A stretch of DNA of 64,000 bases from an uncultured delta proteobacterium. GTDB lineage: Bacteria > Desulfobacterota > Syntrophobacteria > BM002. Under the pieces are notes generated by a model. It did not search any database. It was not told the DNA's origin and saw nothing but the letters and a program-made list of their open reading frames with translations. The translations under genes were made by a program, and so were the position numbers. Below are positions 10,078-27,601 of this stretch, piece after piece. The stretch lies in contig CAVQGX010000002.1 of NCBI GenBank assembly GCA_963712115.1, positions 1-64,000 of the forward strand, in the 5' to 3' direction. How positions within the stretch are numbered: position 1 is the first letter of the stretch; the number at the start of each line of letters is the position of its first letter.

Positions 10078-10922
10078 CAGAGCAGCGCTCTGAATACACA
10101 ACTGAGGAGATGTGCCGCATATTATCAGTGTCTCGCAGCGGTTTTTACAGCTGGCTTAACCGCGCTCAGAGCAAAAGAGACAAGGACAACGACAAGCTGC
10201 TCTGCCACATTGCTCAGATCCATGGTGAATCTCATTGCACTTATGGCAGTCCCCGCATTACCGATGCCCTTCGTCAACGCGGGATTATATGCAACCACAA
10301 GCGGGTGGCACGGTTGATGCGCATCAAGGGCATCAGGTCAAAGATAAAGCGCAAATTCAAAGTGACCACCAATTCGGCCCATAGACGGCCTGTAGCGCCT
10401 AATCTGATTAAACACGGCTTTAGCGCCAGTGCACCGAATCGACTGTGGACTTCGGACATTACCTACATTCGGACCAAGCAAGGTTGGCTCTATTTAGCTG
10501 TTTTCCTGGATGTCTGGTCCCGGCGAATCGTCGGCTGGGCCATGAGTCGAAGCCAAACTGATCGACTAATCACTCAGGCATTCAGGCAAGCGCTAGGTAG
10601 CAGGCGTCCAAAAGCCGGACTCATTGTTCACTCAGATCGTGGCAGCCAATACTGCAGCCGTTCTTTCAAAGAGCTGTTAACCTCAAACCGTTACCTGCAA
10701 TCTATGGCTTCTACAGGTAACAGCTATCAAAATGCAATAACTGAAAGTTTCTTTGCTAGCTTGAAAACCGAGCTGGTCTTTCATGAGATCTATCAGAGCC
10801 GCAACCAAGCTCGAAGGAGCATATTCAAGTACATAGAGATGTTCTACAACCGAAAAAGAATTCATTCTGCTCTGGGAGGAATCTCCCCTGAACAGTTCGA
10901 AAAATCGGAGACCTTAGCTTAA
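10023..10922 (+). CDS. IS3 transposase OrfB (DDE), reached by -1 frameshift
   Basis: Frame open from the slippery site; WTSDITYI, HSDRGSQY, NAITESFF, YNRKRIHSALG. Confidence 0.9.
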   Translation, partial: KKSGGHLLNRARAVFGFIAEQRSEYTTEEMCRILSVSRSGFYSWLNRAQSKRDKDNDKLLCHIAQIHGESHCTYGSPRITDALRQRGIICNHKRVARLMRIKGIRSKIKRKFKVTTNSAHRRPVAPNLIKHGFSASAPNRLWTSDITYIRTKQGWLYLAVFLDVWSRRIVGWAMSRSQTDRLITQAFRQALGSRRPKAGLIVHSDRGSQYCSRSFKELLTSNRYLQSMASTGNSYQNAITESFFASLKTELVFHEIYQSRNQARRSIFKYIEMFYNRKRIHSALGGISPEQFEKSETLA

Positions 10923-11913: not shown

Positions 11914-12312
11914 CTAGTTGCGCCAATCTTCGAGCTGAAGTCCCCCTATTCGAGAGAACTCATCCGTGTTGTGCGTCACTAATATTAGATCATAGGTCTT
12001 CGCTATGGCTGCAATAAAGAGATCATTCGCGCCTATTCTCATGCCGATTCTTTCCAGATCAGCCCTGATAGTTGCATACTGATCGGCGCAACGCTCATCA
12101 AACGGCAAACTGACAAATGGCGCACAGAATTCCTTTACCAAAGCAAGATTCTTCGCAACCTGAACGCTTTTCCTTGCACCATACAATAGTTCAGCTATGA
12201 CGATGGAGCAGAGATAAATCTCCGAAGGATCATGTTGCTCAAGCCGTTGTTTGGCTTTTGAGTTTCTATCCCTGAGAATTTCAATGCAAGGGCTAGTGTC
12301 GAGAAGGTACAT
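11914..12312 (-). CDS. vapC: VapC PIN-domain toxin
   Basis: YLLDTS, IAELLYGA, IGANDLFIAAIA, LVTHNTDEFSRI. Confidence 0.92.
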   Translation of the reverse strand: MYLLDTSPCIEILRDRNSKAKQRLEQHDPSEIYLCSIVIAELLYGARKSVQVAKNLALVKEFCAPFVSLPFDERCADQYATIRADLERIGMRIGANDLFIAAIAKTYDLILVTHNTDEFSRIGGLQLEDWRN

Positions 12313-14957: not shown

Positions 14958-15741
14958 ATGTCGGACAAAGGCAATGATCTTCAGAATGAGGATCAAAAAG
15001 AAAAAGTCGATGTGTTGAGCACAGCGTCGGGCTTACCCGGTTTAGCCGGGTACTTTGAGACCTTCCTCCGGCGTTTTCGAAACTTAAGTTTTTCACTTTG
15101 CCTATCACCCATAGTAGTGCTCGGAGGCTTATGCATTGGGGTATCTCTGGTACCTGGCATTTACCTATATCGCTTCGTAGACGGTTGGACTCAAGCATGG
15201 CCTCAGTTTCTCCACATCGTAGCTCTCGGTTGTGGCTTGGCCTTTGCTTTCCTTGCCTATGGTGTCACGATTATATTCCTGGTGCCTTTGGTAAACTTCC
15301 TGATGCCATTCAAGATCAAACCATGGCGAGGAAGCTGGTTTTCAATTCAAACCATCCCGTGGTACATCCACAACGCTCTTACCTATATAGTTAGATATAC
15401 ATTTCTGGACTTTGTCACCCCAACACCACTTGAACGTTCTGTTTTACCGCCTGATGGGAATGAAGATTGGCAAAGGGGTAATCATAAACACCAGCAACAT
15501 TTCCGATCCCTGCCTCATTACCCTGGAAGACTATGTGACCATTGGCGGCTCGGCCACTCTCTTTGCCCACTACGGGCAAAAGGGTTATCTAATCATTAGC
15601 CCGGTTCACATAAAGAAGGGAGCCACCATCGGTCTTAAAGCCAGTATTATGGGGGATGTAGTGATCGGTGAGAATGCCAGTGTCAAGGCTCATTCTGTGG
15701 TGATGCCAAAGTCGCGAATTGAGGACAATGAAACGGTGTAG
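14958..15741 (+). CDS. Membrane protein with C-terminal left-handed beta-helix (acyltransferase-like), frameshift near 15430
   Basis: Two TM segments, then FYRLMGMKIGKGVIINT...ITLEDYVTIGG...hexapeptide repeats. Confidence 0.75.
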
Positions 15742-16115: not shown

Positions 16116-16171
16116 TGCCTTGAGCCTTGTGCCCTGAGCCTTACGCCTCCTAGCTCCTGTCTCCTAACTCC

Positions 16172-18440
16172 TTACTCCTTCGTCGTCATCGTGAAAACGC
16201 CGTCCCAATCTGTTGGTGGGGGAGCTTCCTGATAGATTTGACAGCGTTCTGCCATGATCCGGGAAGGCCCATCTTCGGGAAGGAAAGCCAAGGATCTTTT
16301 GAAAAGATCCAGCGCCTCTTGCCATACCTGTTGCCGGTAAGCCTCGAGCCCGGCGGTAAAGTAATTCAAAGACTCCTCCATTTCCCTGGGCAAGGAGTCC
16401 CCGGAGTTGCCCAAGAAGTTCGTAAATTCGCACGGGCTGCTTCCTGCCCTTTACCCTCACCTGGTCTACTTCTCGCATGAGAAATGAGTCTTCTACGAGC
16501 CGGGCGGTATTCTCTCCAATCAAGATTTCCGTGCCATAAGTCTTGTTGAGTCCCTCCAGCCGGGAGCCGAGGTTCACCTGGTCCCCCAGGGCTCCATAGG
16601 CAAAGCGATATCGAGATCCGAGATTGCCCACCAGCATGGGGCCAGAATTGACTCCAGTTCTGGCTCTCAAGGGAGGGCGGCCCATGGTGGCCCATTCGGA
16701 ACGGAGGGCGCGGAGTCTGTCGCGCATGGCCAGTGCGGCAGAACAGGCCCTTTGGGCATGGTCGGCCTGTTCGAGGGGGGCGCCAAAGATGGCCATGAGC
16801 TCATCGCCCACGTACTCCTTGAGCGTGCCCTGATAGGTGAAAATCTCCTCGGTCATTTTTTCAAAGTATTCACTCAGCATATTAATCATATCATGAGGGG
16901 AGAAGCGCTCCGAATAGCCGGTAAACCCTGCCAGGTCGCTAAAAAGTACAGTGAGGACCTTTTCCTCTCCCCCCAGTTTCAGCCGCTCTGGCTCTTTGAG
17001 CATCTCTTCGATCACTATGGGGGCCACGTAGTGCTTGAAAGCCCCTTTGATCTTTTTGCGCTCTCGCTCCTCTGTCATGTAGTGATACACAGTAAGAGCT
17101 GTATAAGTAATGGCGATAGCCAACAAGGGATAGACAATATTGAGCCAGACATTCGAACTCACAAAAAGCCATTGGGCGATGAAAATGTGCAAAAAGAACA
17201 GCCCGGTGGCAAGGAAGACTCCTTTGAGAGCACTCATCCGGGGGAGGGCGATCCCGGTAATAGCGCCCAGCAAGATGATGGCTATGAGGTCGTAGATCCT
17301 CGACCACTTGGGTTTGGTCAGGAAGTTTTGGGTCAAGATGTTGTCGATTACCGTGGCATGAATCTCAATGCCGGGATAGAGAGGGTTAAAGGGAGTGGCC
17401 CTGAGGTCATGGGTCCCCATGGCAGTAGCCCCAACCAGGACAATCTTGTCTTTGAAGGTACCTTCACTGACCTTGCCGTGGAGAATATCGCTGATGGAAA
17501 TATGGGGAAAAGTCTTGGGTGGGCCGAGGTAGTTTATGAGGAGTTGACCGCTTTCGTCGGTTGGGATGAAGCCCTTACCAATTTGTATTCCTTCCACCCC
17601 ATAGCGAGCAACCCTAACCATGAGTTGTGGTCTATCAAGATAGTTGTAAACGCAAGATAAGGCCAAAGGAGGGAAGATGTCTTCGCCGCACTGGATTATG
17701 AGTGGCATCCATCTAACTACACCGTCCGGGTCAGCCGCAACACTGAAGAAACCCGAGGCATCGGTTGATTTGCTAAAGATTTCGAGATTGCTCTCAGGGG
17801 CATAAGCTTTAATAAATGGCAGAGGTTGCATGTCAGGATCTTCATAGATGATGAAGGGGTATTTAGAAGAGCTGATGCGCTGGAGTTGTCGGTTTATTTC
17901 CCCCTGCTCAATCCGGTAATCAAGGTCGGCCTCGCGCATGTGGAAGAAATAGCCGAGAACTACCGTGGCGGAGGAATTTCTAATAGCCTCTGCAAGGGCC
18001 AGATCATTGTCGGCATTTTTTCTGCTCTCAATTATGAAGTCGGCCAATTTGTTGTTTTTGATATCCAGATTATTTACTTGCTTGCCAAACTTATCGATAA
18101 ACCCTAGCTCTGAGTTCTCATCCGGCTCCAGAAAACCTATATCGAAACCGATCACCTTGGCCCCGTCTCTGGAGAGGATGCCCACCAGGGTAGCCAGTTT
18201 AGATCTGGGCCAGGGCCAGCGCCCTTCCGTATCGAGGCTCTTTTCATCTATGAGCGCCATAACGACCGCGTCCGCAGGTTGTATCTGGCCCCGTGAGAGG
18301 AAGCGGAGATCGTAGGTTTTCAACTCGATCAGGTCGAGGATGGGGGTACCCATTAGAAAGAAAATCACCACCAGGAGGATGGTACAGATTGTGAGGGAGG
18401 CGGGATTTACCGAGAAGAAGGATTTAAGGGAAAACCTCAT
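16172..18440 (-). CDS. CHASE2 + 3TM + class III nucleotidyl cyclase + TPR-like tail; probable guanylate cyclase (frameshift near 16410)
   Basis: CHASE2 (IDEKSL..GRWPWPRS, DPDGVVR, PGIEIHATVIDNIL); cyclase FSDLAGFT, KEYVGD, YGALGDQVNLGSRLEG; tail ...PPPTDWDGVFTMTTKE. Confidence 0.9.
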
Positions 18441-18503: not shown

Positions 18504-18687
18504 AAGCCCGGATGTTTCATGAATTGGTGTCACGAGACCACGAAGATGGGCGTGCCACCGGGCAACCGGAGGGTGTTGGTCCCGAGGCGTACCTGAATGG
18601 TACGTCGCAGGGGCCGACACCCGAGGACGCACGGAAGGACGGCCATATCTGTGGTCGTAGTAAGCGATTCATGGAACATCCGGGCTA
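18504..18687 (-). mobile_element. ~185-bp MITE, copy 2
   Basis: AGCCCGGATGTT...AACATCCGGGCTA terminal IRs; its end supplies the TAG of the kinase gene. Confidence 0.8.
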
Positions 18688-20454
18688 AACTTTGTCCACC
18701 GTAGTAACTTTGAGTTCGGCCCCTATCTGTTTGACTTCACGATTGAACTCTTCTATCAGTTTATTTAAAACCAGTTGTTGTTCATCCTCATAGAACAAGA
18801 ATAGATTCATCATCTTCCGCCGTTTATCCGTCTGCGGTCGCCTCTCCACCCCCAACTTGTCAGCGATGGGTTGAAGGTCACGGATGATTTCCCACACGGA
18901 TTTGAATCGAGCCGACGGATCTTTCTGGGTAGCACGCTTGATGAAATAATTTAGTTCGTAAGGCAAATCGGGAACCAGGGCTCGGGGGTCCGGGACATCC
19001 TCTTTGAGATGCAATTCCAACAGTTTCGCAGGATCTTCCTCCAGGTACGGCCTTTGGCCAGTGAGCATCTCATAAGCCATAATACCAAACGAATAGATAT
19101 CAGTCCGTTCGTCCACAGTTTCGCCTTCAATTTGTTCCGGAGACATATAATAGATGGTTCCCGGCATGGAACAATCTATGGTTCCCGGTGGGCAGGACAG
19201 GCCAAAGTCAACAATCTTTGTTCGACCATCTAATTGGATGAAGATGTTAGCCGGCTTGATGTCCTGATGAACTATACCCTGATCATGGGCATAACTTAAG
19301 CCGGTACAGACCTGAAGGAGAATGTCCAATGCCTTGGGTACCGTGAGCTTTGGCATTCTATACAAAATATAATCGAGGGGTAACCCTTCGAGGTATTCCA
19401 TGATGATGAAAATTGTCCTGAAAAGCTCTTCGATATCATACACTCTCACAATGTTATCGTGATTTAGCAAGGCAACGGTCTTGGCTTCGTTGTGAAATTT
19501 CTCAGCAAAATCTTTATTCATAGCCATGTCATGCTTTAACATCTTGATGGCCACCGGCATATTCAAGCTTTTGTGCACGCCTTTGTAAACAATACTCCAA
19601 CCACCACGGCCTATGATCTCACTTATGAGGTATTTTCCAACGGTTTTATTTGCCGTAACTTTTTCGGTTGAGAACCGACGAGTCACAAGTTCCGTTAGAA
19701 AGTCCAGCAGATCTGGGTAATCAGTGCAGAGTGAATCAAACTGTTCTCTGGTCAAACTCCAGAGAACCATGTCAGTTTCGGCATCAACGTTTGCGGTTCT
19801 AGGTTCACCTGTCAAAAGGGCAATCTCTCCTACTATATCGCCGCTGCGAAGACGGGAAATTGCGTGTTTGGTTCCATTTTTCTCTACATTGACCACACAT
19901 GAGCCTTCCTGAATTATGTAGAAGGTATGCCCTTCATCTCCTTGGGCAATGAATCTTTCTCCGGTCTTCACGTGGATTGGAGTCATACGATCCAAAAGAG
20001 GACATTTCGCCTCCAAAGGAATGGCATCAAAGAGAGGTGAAGCTATAAGGAATTCCAAGTCACCCGGGTACATCCTTCTTTTTCCTGGATCTACCTCAGG
20101 TCTCGTCCGCTCTGCAGAGAGAGCAACTTCCAGAAACTCCACCCCCAAGAGGTAGAAGCCGGATTTAATCGGGGACGGTTCTGTCCACACAACTCTGCCG
20201 TGGACTGCTTGCCAATCTTTCCCCTCGGGAGTTCTGGTCCAGAAGTCGACTTCAGTATTAATCTCCAATCTCTGAAGAGATTCGAGAAGAAATCCCCCCT
20301 CACTTACATTGAGGAGGTAAACCAGCAAAGTGTCTTTGCCTTCTTCCGATAACTGTTCACGTTGTTGTTCGGTGTAATGTGGATGAACGATGCCGACCTC
20401 TGGTGTGGGCAAAGTCTGTCTGCGATGCCGTCTGCGCTCTTTTCCTATGTTCAT
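18685..20454 (-). CDS. PilZ + cyclic-nucleotide-binding + Hanks-type Ser/Thr kinase
   Basis: RRRHRR...NVSEGG (PilZ); QGDEGHTFYIIQEG...GEIALLTGEPRTANV (CNB); GRGGWSIVY, VAIK, HQDIKPAN, DFG, YMSPE (kinase). RBS GAGGA before ATG 20454. Confidence 0.92.
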   Translation of the reverse strand: MNIGKERRRHRRQTLPTPEVGIVHPHYTEQQREQLSEEGKDTLLVYLLNVSEGGFLLESLQRLEINTEVDFWTRTPEGKDWQAVHGRVVWTEPSPIKSGFYLLGVEFLEVALSAERTRPEVDPGKRRMYPGDLEFLIASPLFDAIPLEAKCPLLDRMTPIHVKTGERFIAQGDEGHTFYIIQEGSCVVNVEKNGTKHAISRLRSGDIVGEIALLTGEPRTANVDAETDMVLWSLTREQFDSLCTDYPDLLDFLTELVTRRFSTEKVTANKTVGKYLISEIIGRGGWSIVYKGVHKSLNMPVAIKMLKHDMAMNKDFAEKFHNEAKTVALLNHDNIVRVYDIEELFRTIFIIMEYLEGLPLDYILYRMPKLTVPKALDILLQVCTGLSYAHDQGIVHQDIKPANIFIQLDGRTKIVDFGLSCPPGTIDCSMPGTIYYMSPEQIEGETVDERTDIYSFGIMAYEMLTGQRPYLEEDPAKLLELHLKEDVPDPRALVPDLPYELNYFIKRATQKDPSARFKSVWEIIRDLQPIADKLGVERRPQTDKRRKMMNLFLFYEDEQQLVLNKLIEEFNREVKQIGAELKVTTVDKV

Positions 20455-20630
20455 GATGTCCTCTCGCGACACCAATTCATCAAACATCCGGGCTAAGGAG
20501 GACTGAGATAATACTCTATTAAAGCCGATTTTGGCACAAAATGGTAAAAAATGTCAAAAATTTCTATTAATAAATGTTCTTTGACCAATTCCAACATCTT
20601 GTGGTAATCTCACCATAGTTATTGTTGGCA

Positions 20631-20784: not shown

Positions 20785-21666
20785 ATGGGGAGTCAAACTA
20801 TGCTGAATCTGCAAAAACTCACGATTGATCTTTGTGTCGAGGAACTAGGCAGGGCATACGAGCGAACCTACAGTCATATGGAGGAGCATCTCGGAAACAT
20901 CATCATGTGGTCAGGGCGACTCGCCCTCGAGAACATTGCCAATTCAGATGCTCTCTACCACAACGTAGAGCATACAGTGATGGTGACCTTGGCAGGCCAG
21001 TCGATTATAGAAGGAAGGCACTTGCTGGAGGGAGGGGTTGCTCCCAGAGACTGGATGAATTTCGTCATAGCACTTCTGTGTCACGATATTGGTTATGTGA
21101 GGGGAATATGCACGGGTGATAAGAACGGCACAATCGCCACGGGTATAGGCGATGAAACGGTAGAGATTCCCCCGGGGGCAAGCGATGCGGCGCTCTCGCC
21201 ATATCATGTCGACCGGAGCAAACTCTTCGTGCGTGAACGGTTCGGCAGAGGGCTACTAATGGGGATGGTATCGGAAATAGACGCAGAGTTAATTGCTTCA
21301 TATATAGAAATGACCCGCTTTCCTGTGCCCGACGACGATTGGTACAAGAACACCGAGGGATATCCGGGTCTGGTGCGAGCGGCGGACTTTGTCGGCCAAC
21401 TCGGGGATCCAAACCGGCCTCGCAAATCCCCGGCGCTGTTCTTCGAGTTTGAAGAAATCGGAGCCAACGAGAATCTCGGCTACCAGAGGCCCGGAGACCT
21501 GCACGACAACTATGCAAAATTTTACTGGGATGTGGTGAGCCCCTATATCCAGGAGGCTCTACGTTATCTTCGTGTAACTCAGGAGGGCAAACAGTGGATA
21601 GCCAATTTGTATGCCAATGTTTTCGGCTCTGAACATGGATGTCAGATCTACAGGACTTGCAGCTAG
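20785..21666 (+). CDS. HD-domain metal-dependent phosphohydrolase (putative cyclic-nucleotide phosphodiesterase)
   Basis: YHNVEH, CHDIGY, YHVDRS, ADFVGQ motifs. Confidence 0.8.
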   Translation: MGSQTMLNLQKLTIDLCVEELGRAYERTYSHMEEHLGNIIMWSGRLALENIANSDALYHNVEHTVMVTLAGQSIIEGRHLLEGGVAPRDWMNFVIALLCHDIGYVRGICTGDKNGTIATGIGDETVEIPPGASDAALSPYHVDRSKLFVRERFGRGLLMGMVSEIDAELIASYIEMTRFPVPDDDWYKNTEGYPGLVRAADFVGQLGDPNRPRKSPALFFEFEEIGANENLGYQRPGDLHDNYAKFYWDVVSPYIQEALRYLRVTQEGKQWIANLYANVFGSEHGCQIYRTCS

Positions 21667-21865: not shown

Positions 21866-22000
21866 GGGCATAAACAGACTTCTACTAAGAATTTCTTGGG
21901 GTACTTGCCAAAAAATAATGTTGTAGATATTTAATTTATCTGCTTAAAAAATATTGAACAGTCGCAGGTTTTGAGGCTAGGCGAGGATAGTCTGTCTATC

Positions 22001-23296
22001 ATGGCTGAAGGAAATCACGACGATACCCCGAAGAAAGTTCCCAGACCGCTCAAGAGGCTGATCGAAGCCCATCAGTCCCTGGCGGACATGGAGTCTCTTG
22101 ATGCATTATTGCCCGTGCTTCTGGACCTGGCCAGGAATGTAACCAACGCGGAAGCCGCGTCTATTATGCTCTACGATGAGAAACGAGAGGTTTTGCAATT
22201 CGCTGCGGCAAAGGACGAGGTTTTGGGCGAGAAAGCGAGGGAAGTCCTCAAAAAGGCAGTGGAACTCAGAAAGGGTGAAGGCATTGCCGGGTGGGTCGCC
22301 CAAAACAAACAGGCCATTAACATCGCAGATGCGCAAAAGGACCACAGGTTTTCCGGGAAAGCCGATGTAAAGACAGGCTTCATCACCCGCAACCTTCTCT
22401 GCGCTCCCTTGCTCTATGGCGATGACCTTATAGGGGTGATCAATGTGCTGAACTCAAAGGAAAAGCCATGCTTTGACGGCTTTGATGAATCTCTTTTGGA
22501 GTGTTTTGCGGACCTGGCCGGCACGGCCATAACCAGATCGAGATTTCTTGAACTACGTCTTCAACAGGAGAGGATGGAGGTTCAACTGGAGGCAGCAGCC
22601 AAGATACAGGCCCTTTTCTGGCCGAAACTACCGGATTTGGGCGTGGGGAGCAATGTTTGGGCGATGTCAACGCCAGCAACTTTTGTTGGAGGAGACCTTT
22701 ACGATGTCATTCGGATGGATGATGAAAGTTGGCTGATATATGTGGCAGATGTCTCCGATAAGGGTCTACCTGCTGCTCTGATCATGGCGGCATTGTCAAC
22801 AAAGATAAGGAGTGAGGCATTGTCGCGCCATGAGGTAGACAAACTCCTCGAGAACGTAAATAACGGTATATATGAGTTGACTGAAGAGGAAGGTTTCTTT
22901 GCCACCATAGTTCTAGGTAGATATTGGCCCAGCGACGGCAGAATGCAGTTTACCCTGGGAGGTCACTTGCCACCCCTGTGGGTGGTTGAAGGTAAATTGA
23001 GAGATGTGCCCGAAATAAAAGGGATGTCATTAGGGGTCAAACCAGATTCTGAGTATGAGAAAAAGGAGATTATTCTTTCTCCCGGAGAATCGATCCTCTT
23101 TCTGACCGACGGGGTCACTGAGGCAGAGAACGAGAGGGGTGAGTTGTTTGGTAGTGATCGTTTATTGAGCCATATCAAATCGGCAAGCGGGCCTCCCTAT
23201 GGTGGCGGGTTATTGGATGAGGTCAATCTTTGGCGAGGCACGGCCGAGGCAAACGACGACTTGACCATGCTTGAAATATGGCGTGAACCGAGGTGA
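22001..23296 (+). CDS. GAF + SpoIIE/PP2C phosphatase (RsbU-like)
   Basis: GEGIAGWVA..LLCAPL (GAF); VGGDLYD, ADVSDKG, TDGVTEA, DDLTM. Confidence 0.92.
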   Translation: MAEGNHDDTPKKVPRPLKRLIEAHQSLADMESLDALLPVLLDLARNVTNAEAASIMLYDEKREVLQFAAAKDEVLGEKAREVLKKAVELRKGEGIAGWVAQNKQAINIADAQKDHRFSGKADVKTGFITRNLLCAPLLYGDDLIGVINVLNSKEKPCFDGFDESLLECFADLAGTAITRSRFLELRLQQERMEVQLEAAAKIQALFWPKLPDLGVGSNVWAMSTPATFVGGDLYDVIRMDDESWLIYVADVSDKGLPAALIMAALSTKIRSEALSRHEVDKLLENVNNGIYELTEEEGFFATIVLGRYWPSDGRMQFTLGGHLPPLWVVEGKLRDVPEIKGMSLGVKPDSEYEKKEIILSPGESILFLTDGVTEAENERGELFGSDRLLSHIKSASGPPYGGGLLDEVNLWRGTAEANDDLTMLEIWREPR

Positions 23297-23679: not shown

Positions 23680-24387
23680 ATGAAAACTGCTGCGGTAACC
23701 CATGTGGGACTAGTTAAAGAGCAAAATCAAGATCGATTCTTAATCAAAGAGTTTTCAGGCGACTCCGTTCTTATCGCCGTGGCTGATGGTGCCGGTGGAA
23801 CGCCGGCCGGCCAAGAAGCCTCTAGAGTGGTTATCGAGAGAATAAATGATTTCCAGCCGGATTCACAAACTCCTGAGGCCAGTCTTGTCAGATTGATGCA
23901 AGAGGCTGATCAGAAGATATGCGGGGTAGTGGAAAAGGAACCTGATTTGAAGGGCATGGGCAGTACATTGACCGCTGCCTTTGTAAGAGGAGAAGCCGTA
24001 TTCTGGGCACATGTGGGAGACAGCAGGCTCTACCTATTCCGAGGCGACGAGCTCACTCAAATAACCGAGGATGACACTATGGCAGGCTTTCTCCTGACAG
24101 AGGGGGAGATTACCAGGGAGGAGGCAAGGGTTCATCCAGGGAGAAACTTTCTTTTTGACTTCATTGGCAGTGGTGAATTTGAAGAGGAAACAGGATCTTT
24201 TACCTTACGCAAGGGTGATCTTCTCCTCCTCACCACGGACGGGCTGCACGATAGAGTGCCGGAAGAAAACTTGGTGTCCATTCTTCGTTCAAATGGTGAG
24301 CTCGACAAAAAGCTCCACGCCCTCATCTCAACTGCTCTAGGAATGAGCGGAAAAGATGATCTAACAGTGGTGGGAGTGGAGGTCTGA
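23680..24387 (+). CDS. Stp1/PrpC-type PP2C Ser/Thr phosphatase
   Basis: THVGLVKEQNQD, VADGAGG, GMGSTL, HVGDSRLY, TDGL, DDLTVV. Confidence 0.92.
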   Translation: MKTAAVTHVGLVKEQNQDRFLIKEFSGDSVLIAVADGAGGTPAGQEASRVVIERINDFQPDSQTPEASLVRLMQEADQKICGVVEKEPDLKGMGSTLTAAFVRGEAVFWAHVGDSRLYLFRGDELTQITEDDTMAGFLLTEGEITREEARVHPGRNFLFDFIGSGEFEEETGSFTLRKGDLLLLTTDGLHDRVPEENLVSILRSNGELDKKLHALISTALGMSGKDDLTVVGVEV

Positions 24388-25639: not shown

Positions 25640-26674
<1,035 letters not shown>

Positions 26675-26743
26675 CCTAGCTAGCACGAAGCAAGACAGGA
26701 GTGTGCGTGGAGACAGTGCAAGACTCCGCGTCGAGAAACCAAG

Positions 26744-27601
26744 GTGCCGGTGACCAGTCAAGCACGGAAATTCATTATTCCCATCCTTATTTTTCTTCTC
26801 GCTCTTAGCCTCATTTCCGCCAATCTCCATAGCCGTGAGAACATGAGCTTTTTTGAATCGCTGGTGGTGGGAATCACTTCACCAGTGCAGAAGGCGGTTT
26901 GGGGGATCATTGGGGGAGTTGGCAGTCTTTGGCGAGGCTATTTCTATCTAGTGGGGCTAGAGCAGGAAAACCAGGATTTAAAGAGAGAACTGCAAGAATT
27001 AAAGCTCCAAATGAACCGTTATCGTGAGGCTGATCTCGCTAATGAACGGTTGCGAGCCCTACTAAACTTTAAGAAATCCATTGCTACGCCTTTGCTGCCC
27101 GCACAGCTGGTGGCCTTTGACCCTTCAGGCTGGTTTCAGACAATTCTGATTGACAAAGGCAGAAATGATGGGGTGGTGCAGGATATGGCAGTGGTAAGTT
27201 CCGAGGGGCTGGTGGGAAGAGTGATTGGGGTGGGCAATCACCATTCCAAGGTGCTGTTGATCCTGGATGGCAACAGTGCGGTGGACGCCTACATCCAACG
27301 CTCAAGGGCTCGTGGTGTGTTAGTGGGTTTGGGACTGGAACTCTGCCTTCTCAAATATGTGCAGAGAAATGAAGACGTTCAGGTGGGCGACCAGGTAATA
27401 TCTTCGGGAATGGGCGGAGTATTTCCAAAGGGGCTTCTAGTGGGTACAGTCCAGGAGGTGGTGCGCGGCAGCTCCGGCCTCTTTCAGAGGGTGGAAGTGG
27501 AGCCCGCCGTGAACTTTAGCAGGCTGGAGGAAGTGCTGGTAGTCATAAAGACCCCGCCCGAAAAGCCTGCCATGTCAGGCTCACAGAAACGACTGGAGTA
27601 A
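26744..27601 (+). CDS. mreC: Rod shape-determining protein MreC
   Basis: ENQDLK..ANERLRALL, IDKGRNDGV, SGMGGVFPKGL; operon order. Confidence 0.95.
   Translation: MPVTSQARKFIIPILIFLLALSLISANLHSRENMSFFESLVVGITSPVQKAVWGIIGGVGSLWRGYFYLVGLEQENQDLKRELQELKLQMNRYREADLANERLRALLNFKKSIATPLLPAQLVAFDPSGWFQTILIDKGRNDGVVQDMAVVSSEGLVGRVIGVGNHHSKVLLILDGNSAVDAYIQRSRARGVLVGLGLELCLLKYVQRNEDVQVGDQVISSGMGGVFPKGLLVGTVQEVVRGSSGLFQRVEVEPAVNFSRLEEVLVVIKTPPEKPAMSGSQKRLE

What the first reader, a model, noticed from the sequence alone, without database searches (positions are those of the whole stretch)
16570..16950. CHASE2 cyclase carries the guanylyl-cyclase signature (Glu and Gly) instead of Lys and Asp/Thr
Seen: the catalytic domain reads GTLKEYVGDE and RFAYGALGDQVNLGSRLEG (Glu codon 16817-16815, Gly codon 16595-16593). 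Established: class III adenylyl cyclases read DK(Y/F)xGD and Y(T/D)xxGDxVN. The Lys-to-Glu change selects GTP, and the Glu+Gly pair is the one in the Synechocystis CHASE2 guanylyl cyclase Cya2. Both metal Asp residues and the transition-state Asn/Arg are intact. Inference: an active membrane receptor guanylate cyclase that automated annotation would label only adenylate/guanylate cyclase.
Basis: partly seen in the sequence, partly recalled or inferred. Interest (0 to 1): 0.8.

Follow-up and report, generated by a model that had tools for sequence, protein, structure and literature searches.

The report
Predicted bacterial membrane guanylate cyclase
A membrane sensor enzyme from an uncultured sediment bacterium carries the two residues that make its one studied relative produce cyclic GMP instead of cyclic AMP, so it probably makes cGMP, a messenger rarely documented in bacteria, but this has not been tested.

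Summary
Window 16164-18440 (-) encodes a CHASE2 / class III cyclase. Glu542 (16817-16815) and Gly616 (16595-16593) align without gaps to Glu488 and Gly562 of the Synechocystis guanylate cyclase Cya2, and to Lys and Thr of the adenylate cyclases CyaB and CyaC. The neighbouring Lys541 is not at the specificity position. Both metal Asp, the Asn/Arg pair and the phosphate Lys are kept.

The pair is conserved in 115 of 121 orthologue rows. It marks a well-supported clade nested among Lys/Thr CHASE2 cyclases, together with D541K, A547E and D614A/S. The clade is no closer to Cya2 than a Lys/Thr paralogue is, so the pair probably arose independently.

Caveats:
- The Tyr that boosts Cya2's GTP activity is Ser here.
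- Nothing is assayed.
- This assembly has a one-base insertion near 16413 that puts the last ~80 codons out of frame. Relatives and environmental contigs lack it.

In its closest relatives the gene lies beside a PilZ-cNMP-binding Ser/Thr kinase, a GAF-PP2C phosphatase and an HD protein whose model resembles class I cNMP phosphodiesterases.

Verdict: a probable guanylate cyclase (about 0.65), a new member of a known kind, of moderate interest.

The parts
16164..18440 (-). CHASE2 / class III nucleotidyl cyclase gene as listed (758-aa ORF). Only 16416-18440 is in the frame shared with homologues.
18318..18422 (-). N-terminal hydrophobic segment (residues 7-41), a predicted membrane helix before CHASE2
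   Evidence: Kyte-Doolittle scan
17262..18377 (-). CHASE2 sensor domain (residues 22-393)
   Evidence: Pfam PF05226, 6.3e-64
17088..17303 (-). hydrophobic block (residues 380-451), probably three membrane helices between sensor and cyclase
16419..16955 (-). class III cyclase catalytic domain (residues 496-674)
   Evidence: Pfam PF00211, 4.3e-24; PDB alignments
16815..16817 (-). Glu542 codon at the Lys (base-specifying) position. The preceding codon (16818-16820) is Lys541.
16593..16595 (-). Gly616 codon at the Asp/Thr (second base-specifying) position
16563..16565 (-). Ser626 codon at the position of Cya2 Tyr572
16412..16416 (-). site of the one-base insertion that shifts the frame: the window reads CTTCTTGGG where the 91%-identical locus L001 reads CTTC-TGGG
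16172..16414 (-). conserved C-terminal tail of the cyclase, encoded in the other frame in this assembly. It is in frame with the cyclase at all 27 homologue loci that hold the tail.
18685..20487 (-). upstream gene on the same strand: PilZ, cNMP-binding and Ser/Thr protein kinase domains (600 aa); candidate effector
   Evidence: Pfam; conserved directly upstream in L001, L003, L006, L013, L014, L016, L027
20785..21666 (+). HD-domain metalloprotein (NCBIfam NF045583, 390 bits, cut-off 400). The model is most like class I cNMP phosphodiesterases; candidate phosphodiesterase.
21971..23296 (+). GAF and SpoIIE/PP2C phosphatase domains
   Evidence: Pfam
23680..24387 (+). PP2C-type phosphatase
   Evidence: Pfam

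Best explanation
The gene encodes a membrane receptor-type class III nucleotidyl cyclase. It has an extracytoplasmic CHASE2 sensor, membrane helices, a homodimerising catalytic domain and a short C-terminal tail. Its purine pocket has been remodelled from the Lys/Thr (ATP) state of its relatives to a Glu/Gly state, so it most likely converts GTP to 3',5'-cGMP, as Cya2 of Synechocystis does. Shown: the domain architecture, the register of the two residues, retention of the catalytic residues, and conservation of the Glu/Gly state in a distinct clade. Inferred: GTP preference, and the proposal that the product acts on the co-located cNMP-binding Ser/Thr kinase and is hydrolysed by the neighbouring HD protein. 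In this particular assembly the tail is frameshifted. I think this is more likely an assembly error than a real lesion.
For: (1) Register. Gapless phmmer alignment to Cya2 2w01 (4.5e-36), CyaB 3r5g and CyaC 1wc0 puts Glu542 on Cya2 Glu488 and on Lys of CyaB/CyaC. It puts Gly616 on Cya2 Gly562 and on Thr of CyaB/CyaC. A gapless BLASTP alignment to the genome's own Lys/Thr CHASE2 paralogue (54% identity over 221 residues) shows LKEYVGDE against LDKYIGDA, and FAYGALGD against FDYTVMGD.
(2) Published function of the pair. Cya2 has a Glu-Gly pair and strongly prefers GTP (passages of PMC6005667). The single change E488K turns it into an adenylate cyclase (passages of PMC5995499). A Lys/Thr-type photoactivated adenylate cyclase was turned into a guanylate cyclase by three specificity mutations, with about 7:1 GTP over ATP (passages of PMC4569695).
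(3) Catalytic residues. Seven of the eight Cya2 active-site residues tabulated in PMC6005667 are identical: D502, E542, D546, G616, N623, R627 and K664.
(4) Conservation. E/G occurs in 115 of 121 rows of orthologues at 65-96% identity. Among the 150 best cluster representatives (154 domain rows plus the query) the counts are K/T 133, E/G 19, Q/G 1, E/T 1 and E/gap 1. In a FastTree with the trait columns removed (154 rows; one fragment under 170 aa dropped), the query lies in a clade of 19 rows (17 E/G, 1 E/T, 1 Q/G) with support 99.
(5) Co-ordinated pocket changes between this clade and the K/T rows: D541K, K542E, A547E, T616G, and D614 to S/A. This looks like selection for a new specificity, not decay.
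(6) The same genome keeps a K/T CHASE2 paralogue of equal length.
(7) Context. The cNMP-binding kinase lies directly upstream on the same strand at 7 of the closest loci. The HD protein lies within 16 of 35 cyclase-centred loci, 13 of which can be typed, and all 13 are E/G. It is in 0 of 8 non-E/G loci.
Against: No assay exists for any member of this clade. The Tyr at Asn+3 (Cya2 Tyr572), reported to greatly enhance guanylate cyclase activity (PMC4215837 citing Rauch 2008), is Ser in 121 of 121 orthologue rows, as in the K/T relatives. Cya2 has Lys two residues before the Gly (alignment), whereas the query has Ala. The Cya2 Arg450 equivalent is Ala. Engineered Glu/Gly enzymes can be weak or poorly selective: Ma1120 mutants reached only equal preference for the two substrates, and bPGC made one cAMP per 4-7 cGMP. 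The clade is not specially related to Cya2 (128.0 against 130.2 bits), so function cannot be transferred by orthology. The gene as assembled has a frameshifted tail. Context support is soft. The Thr in the kinase's phosphate-binding cassette (PRTAN) is replaced by Ser in the more distant kinase homologues L007 and L023. In 80 HD-centred metagenome loci only 6 held any class III cyclase ORF, and only one of these was an adjacent E/G cyclase.
Confidence: 0.65

Rival explanations
1. It is a purine cyclase of mixed or weak specificity, making both cAMP and cGMP. The Glu/Gly pair alone, without Cya2's Tyr572 and Lys560, does not give clean GTP selection.
For: Ser is at the Tyr572 position in 121 of 121 rows and Ala or Ser at the -2 position. 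Ma1120 K101E/D157G(/A167Y) mutants reached only equal preference for the two substrates (passages of PMC4215837). The engineered bPGC still made cAMP (PMC4569695). Cya2 itself is said to bind both substrates equally well.
Against: The clade has its own extra changes next to the pocket (D541K, A547E, loss of Asp614), which could replace the roles of Tyr and Lys. The genome keeps a separate K/T paralogue. A mixed-product enzyme would make that division of labour less meaningful.
Confidence: 0.2
2. It is still in effect an adenylate cyclase, with Lys541 taking over adenine recognition.
For: Lys541 is conserved in 115 of 121 rows, directly beside Glu542.
Against: The alignments to Cya2, CyaB, CyaC and the K/T paralogue are gapless between the invariant Gly538 and Gly545-Asp546, so Lys541 occupies the column that holds Asp in 132 of 133 K/T rows. 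In a beta strand that side chain points to the other face (inference from the known class III fold). The Thr partner of the adenine pair is also lost.
Confidence: 0.05
3. In this genome the gene is a real pseudogene or a crippled allele, because the +1 frameshift replaces the conserved C-terminal tail.
For: The extra base is in the assembly and is not in a long homopolymer. The Cya2 C-terminal extension influences activity in fusion constructs (passages of PMC5995499).
Against: A second one-base insertion breaks another conserved gene 1 kb away, at 15432, which suggests scattered assembly indels. Contigs from 4 of 4 public runs laid on the region lack one base at 16413-16416, but these come from relatives 90-99% alike, and no run is shown to be the source. 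All 27 homologue loci that hold the tail have it in frame. The catalytic domain itself is intact.
Confidence: 0.2

Closest known systems
Cya2 (Sll0646) of Synechocystis PCC 6803, CHASE2 guanylate cyclase (PDB 2w01)
   Same: CHASE2, membrane helices, class III catalytic domain and C-terminal extension. A Glu/Gly pair at the two base-specifying positions. Identical Asp, Asp, Asn, Arg and Lys catalytic residues. About 128 bits in a gapless alignment over both motifs.
   Different: Ser instead of Tyr572, Ala instead of the Lys two residues before the Gly, and Ala instead of Arg450. The query has its own Lys541 and Glu547. It is no closer to Cya2 than the Lys/Thr paralogue is, so the pair is probably convergent. 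No biochemistry.
Lys/Thr CHASE2 adenylate cyclases (class IIIb type), e.g. CyaB of Pseudomonas aeruginosa (PDB 3r5g) and the paralogue at G000:C19
   Same: Same architecture and length (758 aa for the paralogue). 54% identity in the catalytic domain with no gap. These are the nearest sequence relatives outside the clade.
   Different: Lys/Thr instead of Glu/Gly, Asp instead of Lys541, Ala instead of Glu547, and Asp instead of Ala614. The paralogue's neighbours are different: deacetylase, S41 and M23 peptidases.
Engineered guanylate cyclases from Lys/Thr enzymes (bPGC/BlgC from Beggiatoa bPAC)
   Same: They show that changing the specificity residues of this kind of catalytic domain is enough to make cGMP (PMC4569695).
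   Different: They are artificial, weak and leaky. The identity of the three mutations (K-to-E, T-to-G, and D-to-K at -2) is recalled by me and was not seen in a call. The query has Ala, not Lys, at -2.
Eukaryotic class I cNMP phosphodiesterases (for the neighbouring HD protein)
   Same: The model of the HD protein (pLDDT 69, pTM 0.75) matches class I PDE catalytic domains best. Ranks 1-16 and 18 of 48,161 chains are class I PDEs, with Z 11.6-13.8 and 229-251 residues aligned. All of the ~50 listed Foldseek rows are class I PDEs. There is a weak Pfam PF00233 hit over the YHN..H and HD motifs (E 0.029).
   Different: Below every curated threshold. The Prosite pattern quoted in PMC5617230 is not met, because Tyr replaces the second His. 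Z values of this size can arise between helical proteins. Most members of the HD family are not next to cyclases.

Membership tests
Class III nucleotidyl cyclase (Pfam PF00211) | Profile match above the curated cut-off | tested here: met
   85.6 bits against a cut-off of 21.9, residues 496-674
Class III nucleotidyl cyclase (Pfam PF00211) | Two metal-binding Asp, the transition-state Asn and Arg, and the phosphate Lys | tested here: met
   D502, D546, N623, R627 and K664 align to Cya2 D448, D492, N569, R573 and K608
CHASE2 receptor (Pfam PF05226) | CHASE2 domain flanked by hydrophobic segments | tested here: met
   216.4 bits, residues 22-393. Hydrophobic blocks at 7-41 and 380-451.
Cya2-type guanylate cyclase | Glu at the Lys position and Gly at the Asp/Thr position | tested here: met
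   Gapless alignments. The Cya2 residue table is in PMC6005667.
Cya2-type guanylate cyclase | Tyr three residues after the catalytic Asn (Tyr572), reported to boost GTP turnover | tested here: not met
   Ser626 in the query and in 121 of 121 orthologue rows
Cya2-type guanylate cyclase | A supporting Lys that helps the Glu | tested here: inconclusive
   PMC6005667 mentions a supporting Lys without giving its number. Rauch 2008 is not held. Cya2 has Lys two residues before Gly562 where the query has Ala614. The query has Lys541 instead.
Cya2-type guanylate cyclase | Common descent with Cya2 to the exclusion of Lys/Thr cyclases | tested here: not met
   Query 128.0 bits against 2w01, own K/T paralogue 130.2 bits. 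The nearest K/T representatives are 50-58% identical to the query. Cya2 could not be placed in the tree because its sequence is not held as a usable record.
Cya2-type guanylate cyclase | Preference for GTP in an enzyme assay | not testable with these tools
   Needs purified protein
Class I cNMP phosphodiesterase (neighbouring HD protein) | Pfam PF00233 above cut-off, and the Prosite pattern H-D-[LIVMFY]-x-H-x-[AG]-x(2)-[NQ] | tested here: not met
   14.5 bits against a cut-off of 24.8. The protein reads H-D-I-G-Y, with Tyr for the second His.
Class I cNMP phosphodiesterase (neighbouring HD protein) | Fold of the catalytic domain | tested here: inconclusive
   Best structural matches are class I PDEs at Z 11.6-13.8 over 229-251 of 293 residues, ahead of SpoT/Rel HD domains at Z up to 11.7. 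The model is only pLDDT 69 and the protein is helical.
NCBIfam NF045583 (Npun_R2479 family HD metalloprotein) | Score above the curated cut-off of 400 bits | tested here: not met
   390 bits, full-length match over positions 2-274 of 275; just under the cut-off, so a close relative of the family
cNMP-dependent protein kinase (upstream gene) | cNMP-binding domain fused to a Ser/Thr kinase domain | tested here: met
   PF00027 at residues 171-256 (2.7e-21) and PF00069 at 288-529 (1.9e-51), plus N-terminal PilZ. Which nucleotide it binds cannot be tested here.

The most novel reading that the evidence does not exclude
The locus is a complete bacterial cGMP signalling cassette that evolved independently of Cya2. 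It would comprise a CHASE2 receptor guanylate cyclase, a PKG-like cNMP-binding Ser/Thr kinase that also reads c-di-GMP through PilZ, opposing GAF-PP2C and PP2C phosphatases, and an HD hydrolase with the fold of eukaryotic class I phosphodiesterases acting as the cGMP phosphodiesterase. That would be a prokaryotic counterpart of the animal receptor-GC / PKG / PDE circuit, in sediment Desulfobacterota.
Probability: 0.2. Interest if true: 0.75.

Novelty: new member of a known kind. Interest (0 to 1): 0.45.

Why it matters
I know of only a handful of assayed bacterial guanylate cyclases (Cya2, and from recall those of Rhodospirillum centenum and Xanthomonas). Automated annotation calls this protein 'adenylate cyclase' or 'adenylate/guanylate cyclase' (source names). 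If the prediction holds, a whole clade of uncultured sediment bacteria uses cGMP. More than a hundred 90%-identity clusters are seen, and contigs of close relatives (90-99% alike) from the four marine- and estuary-sediment runs that were laid cover the gene. The Glu/Gly solution would then have arisen at least twice from Lys/Thr ancestors. The conserved neighbours give concrete candidates for a bacterial cGMP-dependent protein kinase and for a class-I-like phosphodiesterase; I know of no characterised bacterial example of either. As it stands this is a sound sequence-based prediction, not a discovery.

Tried and rejected
- The first PDB search used the wrong frame and was repeated in frame.
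- Rauch 2008 (PMC2572937) and Ryu 2015 (PMC4644428) are not held. What I say of them comes from other papers' passages or from recall, and their alignments of Cya2-like bacterial cyclases may already include this clade.
- Searches for cGMP / guanylate cyclase / Desulfobacter, CHASE2 with guanylate cyclase and Npun_R2479 found nothing on this clade or on the HD family's function.
- The BlgC mutations could not be confirmed in PMC11629205.
- The idea that the HD family is a dedicated partner of Glu/Gly cyclases is rejected at family level. Of 80 HD-centred metagenome loci, a class III cyclase ORF was found in 6 (L075 E/G and adjacent; L055 a fragment; L082 K/D; L084 Q/T; L086 and L113 K/T), plus a CHASE2 fragment in L052. 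Many others sit beside miaA, aldo-keto reductase and acyl-CoA ligase genes. The Pfam scan covered 92 of the 247 neighbouring ORFs, and many loci are short.
- In a sample of 401 genomes of the phylum, the HD family was found in 3 and a close Glu/Gly orthologue in 2. That is too few for a co-occurrence test. The third HD genome, G390, has a distant Glu/Gly cyclase on another contig.
- The Thr in the kinase's PRTAN motif was considered as a cGMP marker (recalled from PKG and CNG channels) and rejected as diagnostic: it is Ser in L007 and L023.
- The HD protein has no sequence match in the PDB at E up to 1.
- Promoter and terminator scans gave only a promoter-like site upstream of the kinase, and nothing in the 244-base gap before the cyclase. 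That is weak support for co-transcription.
- RNA contigs of run X15 cover the gene of relatives, but this does not show expression of this gene.
Full report
**What is there.** Window 16164..18440 on the minus strand is a 758-codon ORF. It has a CHASE2 domain (residues 22-393, 6.3e-64) and a class III cyclase domain (residues 496-674, 4.3e-24). Hydrophobic blocks lie at residues 7-41 and 380-451. This is the usual receptor layout: helix, extracytoplasmic CHASE2, helices, cytoplasmic cyclase. Reading the strand confirms GTLKEYVGDE with Glu542 at 16817-16815, and RFAYGALGDQVNLGSRLEG with Gly616 at 16595-16593.

**Register.** phmmer against all PDB chains gives these best hits: a phytochrome fusion of the Cya2 E488K cyclase (6fht), Cya2 itself (2w01, 4.5e-36), CyaB of P. 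aeruginosa (3r5g) and CyaC of Spirulina (1wc0/1wc1).
- The alignments have no gap from before the first metal Asp to beyond the Asn/Arg pair.
- Using the Cya2 residue table in PMC6005667, the correspondence is a constant +54: Asp448/502, Glu488/542, Asp492/546, Gly562/616, Asn569/623 and Arg573/627. After a two-residue gap it continues with Lys608/664.
- CyaB and CyaC have Lys and Thr in the two columns.
- A gapless BLASTP alignment with the genome's own Lys/Thr CHASE2 paralogue (54% identity over 221 residues) shows the same.
- Lys541 therefore lies in the column that is Asp in 132 of 133 Lys/Thr relatives, not at the specificity position.

**Is it more than chance?** The 120 best full-length homologues are 65-96% identical, about 755 aa long, and named from Deltaproteobacteria, Desulfobacterales and Thermodesulfobacteriota MAGs where named.
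- Aligned with the query, they give E/G in 115 of 121 rows. The rest are D/G 2, G/S 2, E/D 1 and E/S 1.
- A search of 1.84 billion cluster representatives with the catalytic domain found 105,632 proteins at E up to 0.001.
- In the best 150 (154 domain rows plus the query) the pair is K/T 133, E/G 19, Q/G 1, E/T 1 and E/gap 1. All the nearest representatives are E/G or Q/G, except the tandem-domain protein P0133.
- In a FastTree made with the three trait columns removed (154 rows; one fragment under 170 aa dropped), the query sits in a clade of 19 rows (17 E/G, 1 E/T, 1 Q/G) with local support 99. Two further E/G rows, the two domains of P0157, lie elsewhere.
- The clade differs from the K/T rows at few positions, mostly around the pocket: D541K, K542E, A547E, T616G and Asp614 to Ser/Ala, plus I503L, L526F, M607L and S642G.

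**What the literature allows.** Cya2 has a Glu-Gly pair and strongly prefers GTP. The Glu does most of the selection, helped by a Lys, and the Gly acts sterically together with a Tyr (passages of PMC6005667). E488K alone makes Cya2 an adenylate cyclase (passages of PMC5995499). Three specificity mutations turned the Lys/Thr enzyme bPAC into a guanylate cyclase, though a weak and leaky one (passages of PMC4569695). Ma1120 mutants with Glu/Gly gained guanylate cyclase activity but not clean specificity, and the Tyr at Asn+3 is said to enhance Cya2's guanylate cyclase activity greatly (passages of PMC4215837). I could not read Rauch 2008 or Ryu 2015. Their alignments may already list relatives of this protein.

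**Points against a simple transfer of function.**
- Ser626 stands at the Tyr572 position in 121 of 121 orthologue rows.
- Ala614 stands where Cya2 has Lys, and Ala504 where Cya2 has Arg450. Ala is also common at position 504 in K/T relatives (35 of 133).
- The clade is not specially related to Cya2. The query scores 128.0 bits against 2w01 and the K/T paralogue scores 130.2, while K/T representatives are 50-58% identical to the query.
- The Glu/Gly state therefore probably arose here independently. The prediction then rests on mechanism, not orthology. It also shows that the same solution was selected twice.

**The frameshift.** After IYELL the listed ORF runs into unrelated sequence. Homologues continue with a conserved ~75-residue tail, which the window encodes in another frame at 16172-16414.
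- At all 27 homologue loci that hold the tail, it follows the cyclase in frame.
- The window reads CTTCTTGGG where L001 (91% identical) reads CTTC-TGGG.
- Contigs of four public runs (three sediment or estuary metagenomes and one metatranscriptome), laid at 90% likeness or more, all lack one base at 16413-16416. They come from relatives, and none is shown to be the source sample.
- A second single-base insertion breaks the hexapeptide-transferase gene at 15432.
- I read both insertions as probable assembly errors (about 0.8). A real lesion would leave the catalytic domain intact but remove a tail that matters in Cya2 constructs.

**Surroundings.** Directly upstream on the same strand (18685-20487) is a PilZ / cNMP-binding / Ser/Thr kinase gene. 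Divergent from it are an HD-domain protein (20785-21666), a GAF-PP2C phosphatase (21971-23296) and a PP2C phosphatase (23680-24387).
- In 35 cyclase-centred loci from reference genomes, the kinase is directly upstream in 7 of the closest, and nearby in L007 and L023. The HD gene is present in 16, often immediately upstream of the cyclase.
- Of the 31 loci that hold the catalytic domain, 22 are E/G (one more has Glu but is cut before the second position), 6 are K/T and 2 are T/G. All 13 typable HD-bearing loci are E/G, and none of the 8 non-E/G loci has the HD gene. These loci are kin, so this is not a statistical test.
- The genome's K/T paralogue has unrelated neighbours.

**The HD protein.** It has no Pfam family above cut-off, but its only weak hit is PDEase_I over the YHN..H / HD motifs (E 0.029).
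- Its AlphaFold model (pLDDT 69, pTM 0.75) matches class I cNMP phosphodiesterases first, both by Foldseek (all ~50 listed rows, E about 0.01-0.08) and by an all-against-all aligner (ranks 1-16 and 18, Z 11.6-13.8, 229-251 residues aligned).
- The class I Prosite pattern is not met.
- The family as a whole is not tied to cyclases.
- It is therefore a candidate phosphodiesterase only.

**The kinase's nucleotide.** Among the genome's cNMP-binding domains (31 matches, of which the first 29 were examined; a phosphate-binding cassette was recognised in 12), only this kinase (PRTAN) and a second cNMP-kinase on contig C4 (PRTAH) have Thr after the Arg. More distant kinase homologues have Ser. The nucleotide it binds stays open.

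**Verdict.** This is a probable CHASE2 receptor guanylate cyclase (0.65), otherwise a mixed-specificity purine cyclase (0.2). It is a new member of a known kind. It belongs to a sizeable uncultured sediment clade that probably reached the Glu/Gly state independently, and it sits in a gene cluster that offers testable candidates for a bacterial cGMP-dependent kinase and a phosphodiesterase. Interest is moderate (0.45): the prediction is well founded and useful for annotation, but it repeats a known signature and nothing is assayed.

Noticed in passing
window 14958-15741 (+), site 15432: A hexapeptide-repeat transferase gene is split into two overlapping ORFs by a single extra G at 15432 relative to L001, L006 and L038, where it is one ORF. 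This is the second one-base insertion within 1 kb of the cyclase frameshift, which suggests scattered indel errors in this assembly.
   Followed up: partly
G000:C12:15281-18538 (own genome, locus L128): A 1086-aa protein with an N-terminal class III cyclase domain followed by CHAT protease, TPR repeats and a weak CsgG-like match. By HMM alignment it also has Glu and Gly at the two specificity positions. It is a second, unrelated candidate guanylate cyclase in the same genome.
   Followed up: partly
G000:C4:5469-7019 (own genome, locus L130): A second cNMP-binding / Ser/Thr kinase (517 aa, no PilZ) whose phosphate-binding cassette reads PRTAH. It is the only other domain in the genome with Thr after the Arg.
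   Followed up: partly
L011 and L015 (Desulfobulbaceae MAGs), cyclase catalytic domain: Two orthologue loci (about 67% identity) have Glu one position earlier, Thr at the specificity position, and Gly at the second position. This is a shifted variant of the pair.
   Followed up: no
orthologue alignment, query residue 664: The equivalent of Cya2 Lys608 is Lys in the query but Val in 78 of 121 orthologue rows, each followed by a conserved Gly. An adjacent Arg seen in the rows printed may take over its role.
   Followed up: no
P0157 (representative): A 1011-aa protein with two cyclase domains, both Glu/Gly. The first lacks the first metal Asp (Gly instead). It lies outside the query's clade in the tree.
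   Followed up: no
window 21971-23296 (+): The GAF domain of the PP2C phosphatase contains N-S-K ... F-D-G-F-D-E, which partly resembles the NKFDE motif of cNMP-binding GAF domains. The motif is recalled, not taken from a call (sequence).
   Followed up: no
window 10110-10922 (+) and 11914-12312 (-): An IS-type integrase/transposase (rve, HTH_21) and a PIN-domain gene lie a few kb from the cluster.
   Followed up: no
L057:34-1062 and L059:67-732 (metagenome loci): In some HD-family loci the gene directly upstream encodes a cNMP-binding-GGDEF or a GGDEF protein. L051 and L066 have GAF histidine kinases beside the HD gene. Part of this HD family thus sits in nucleotide-signalling contexts other than cyclases.
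   Followed up: partly
window 25643-27601 (+): mreB and mreC lie downstream of the signalling cluster.
   Followed up: no
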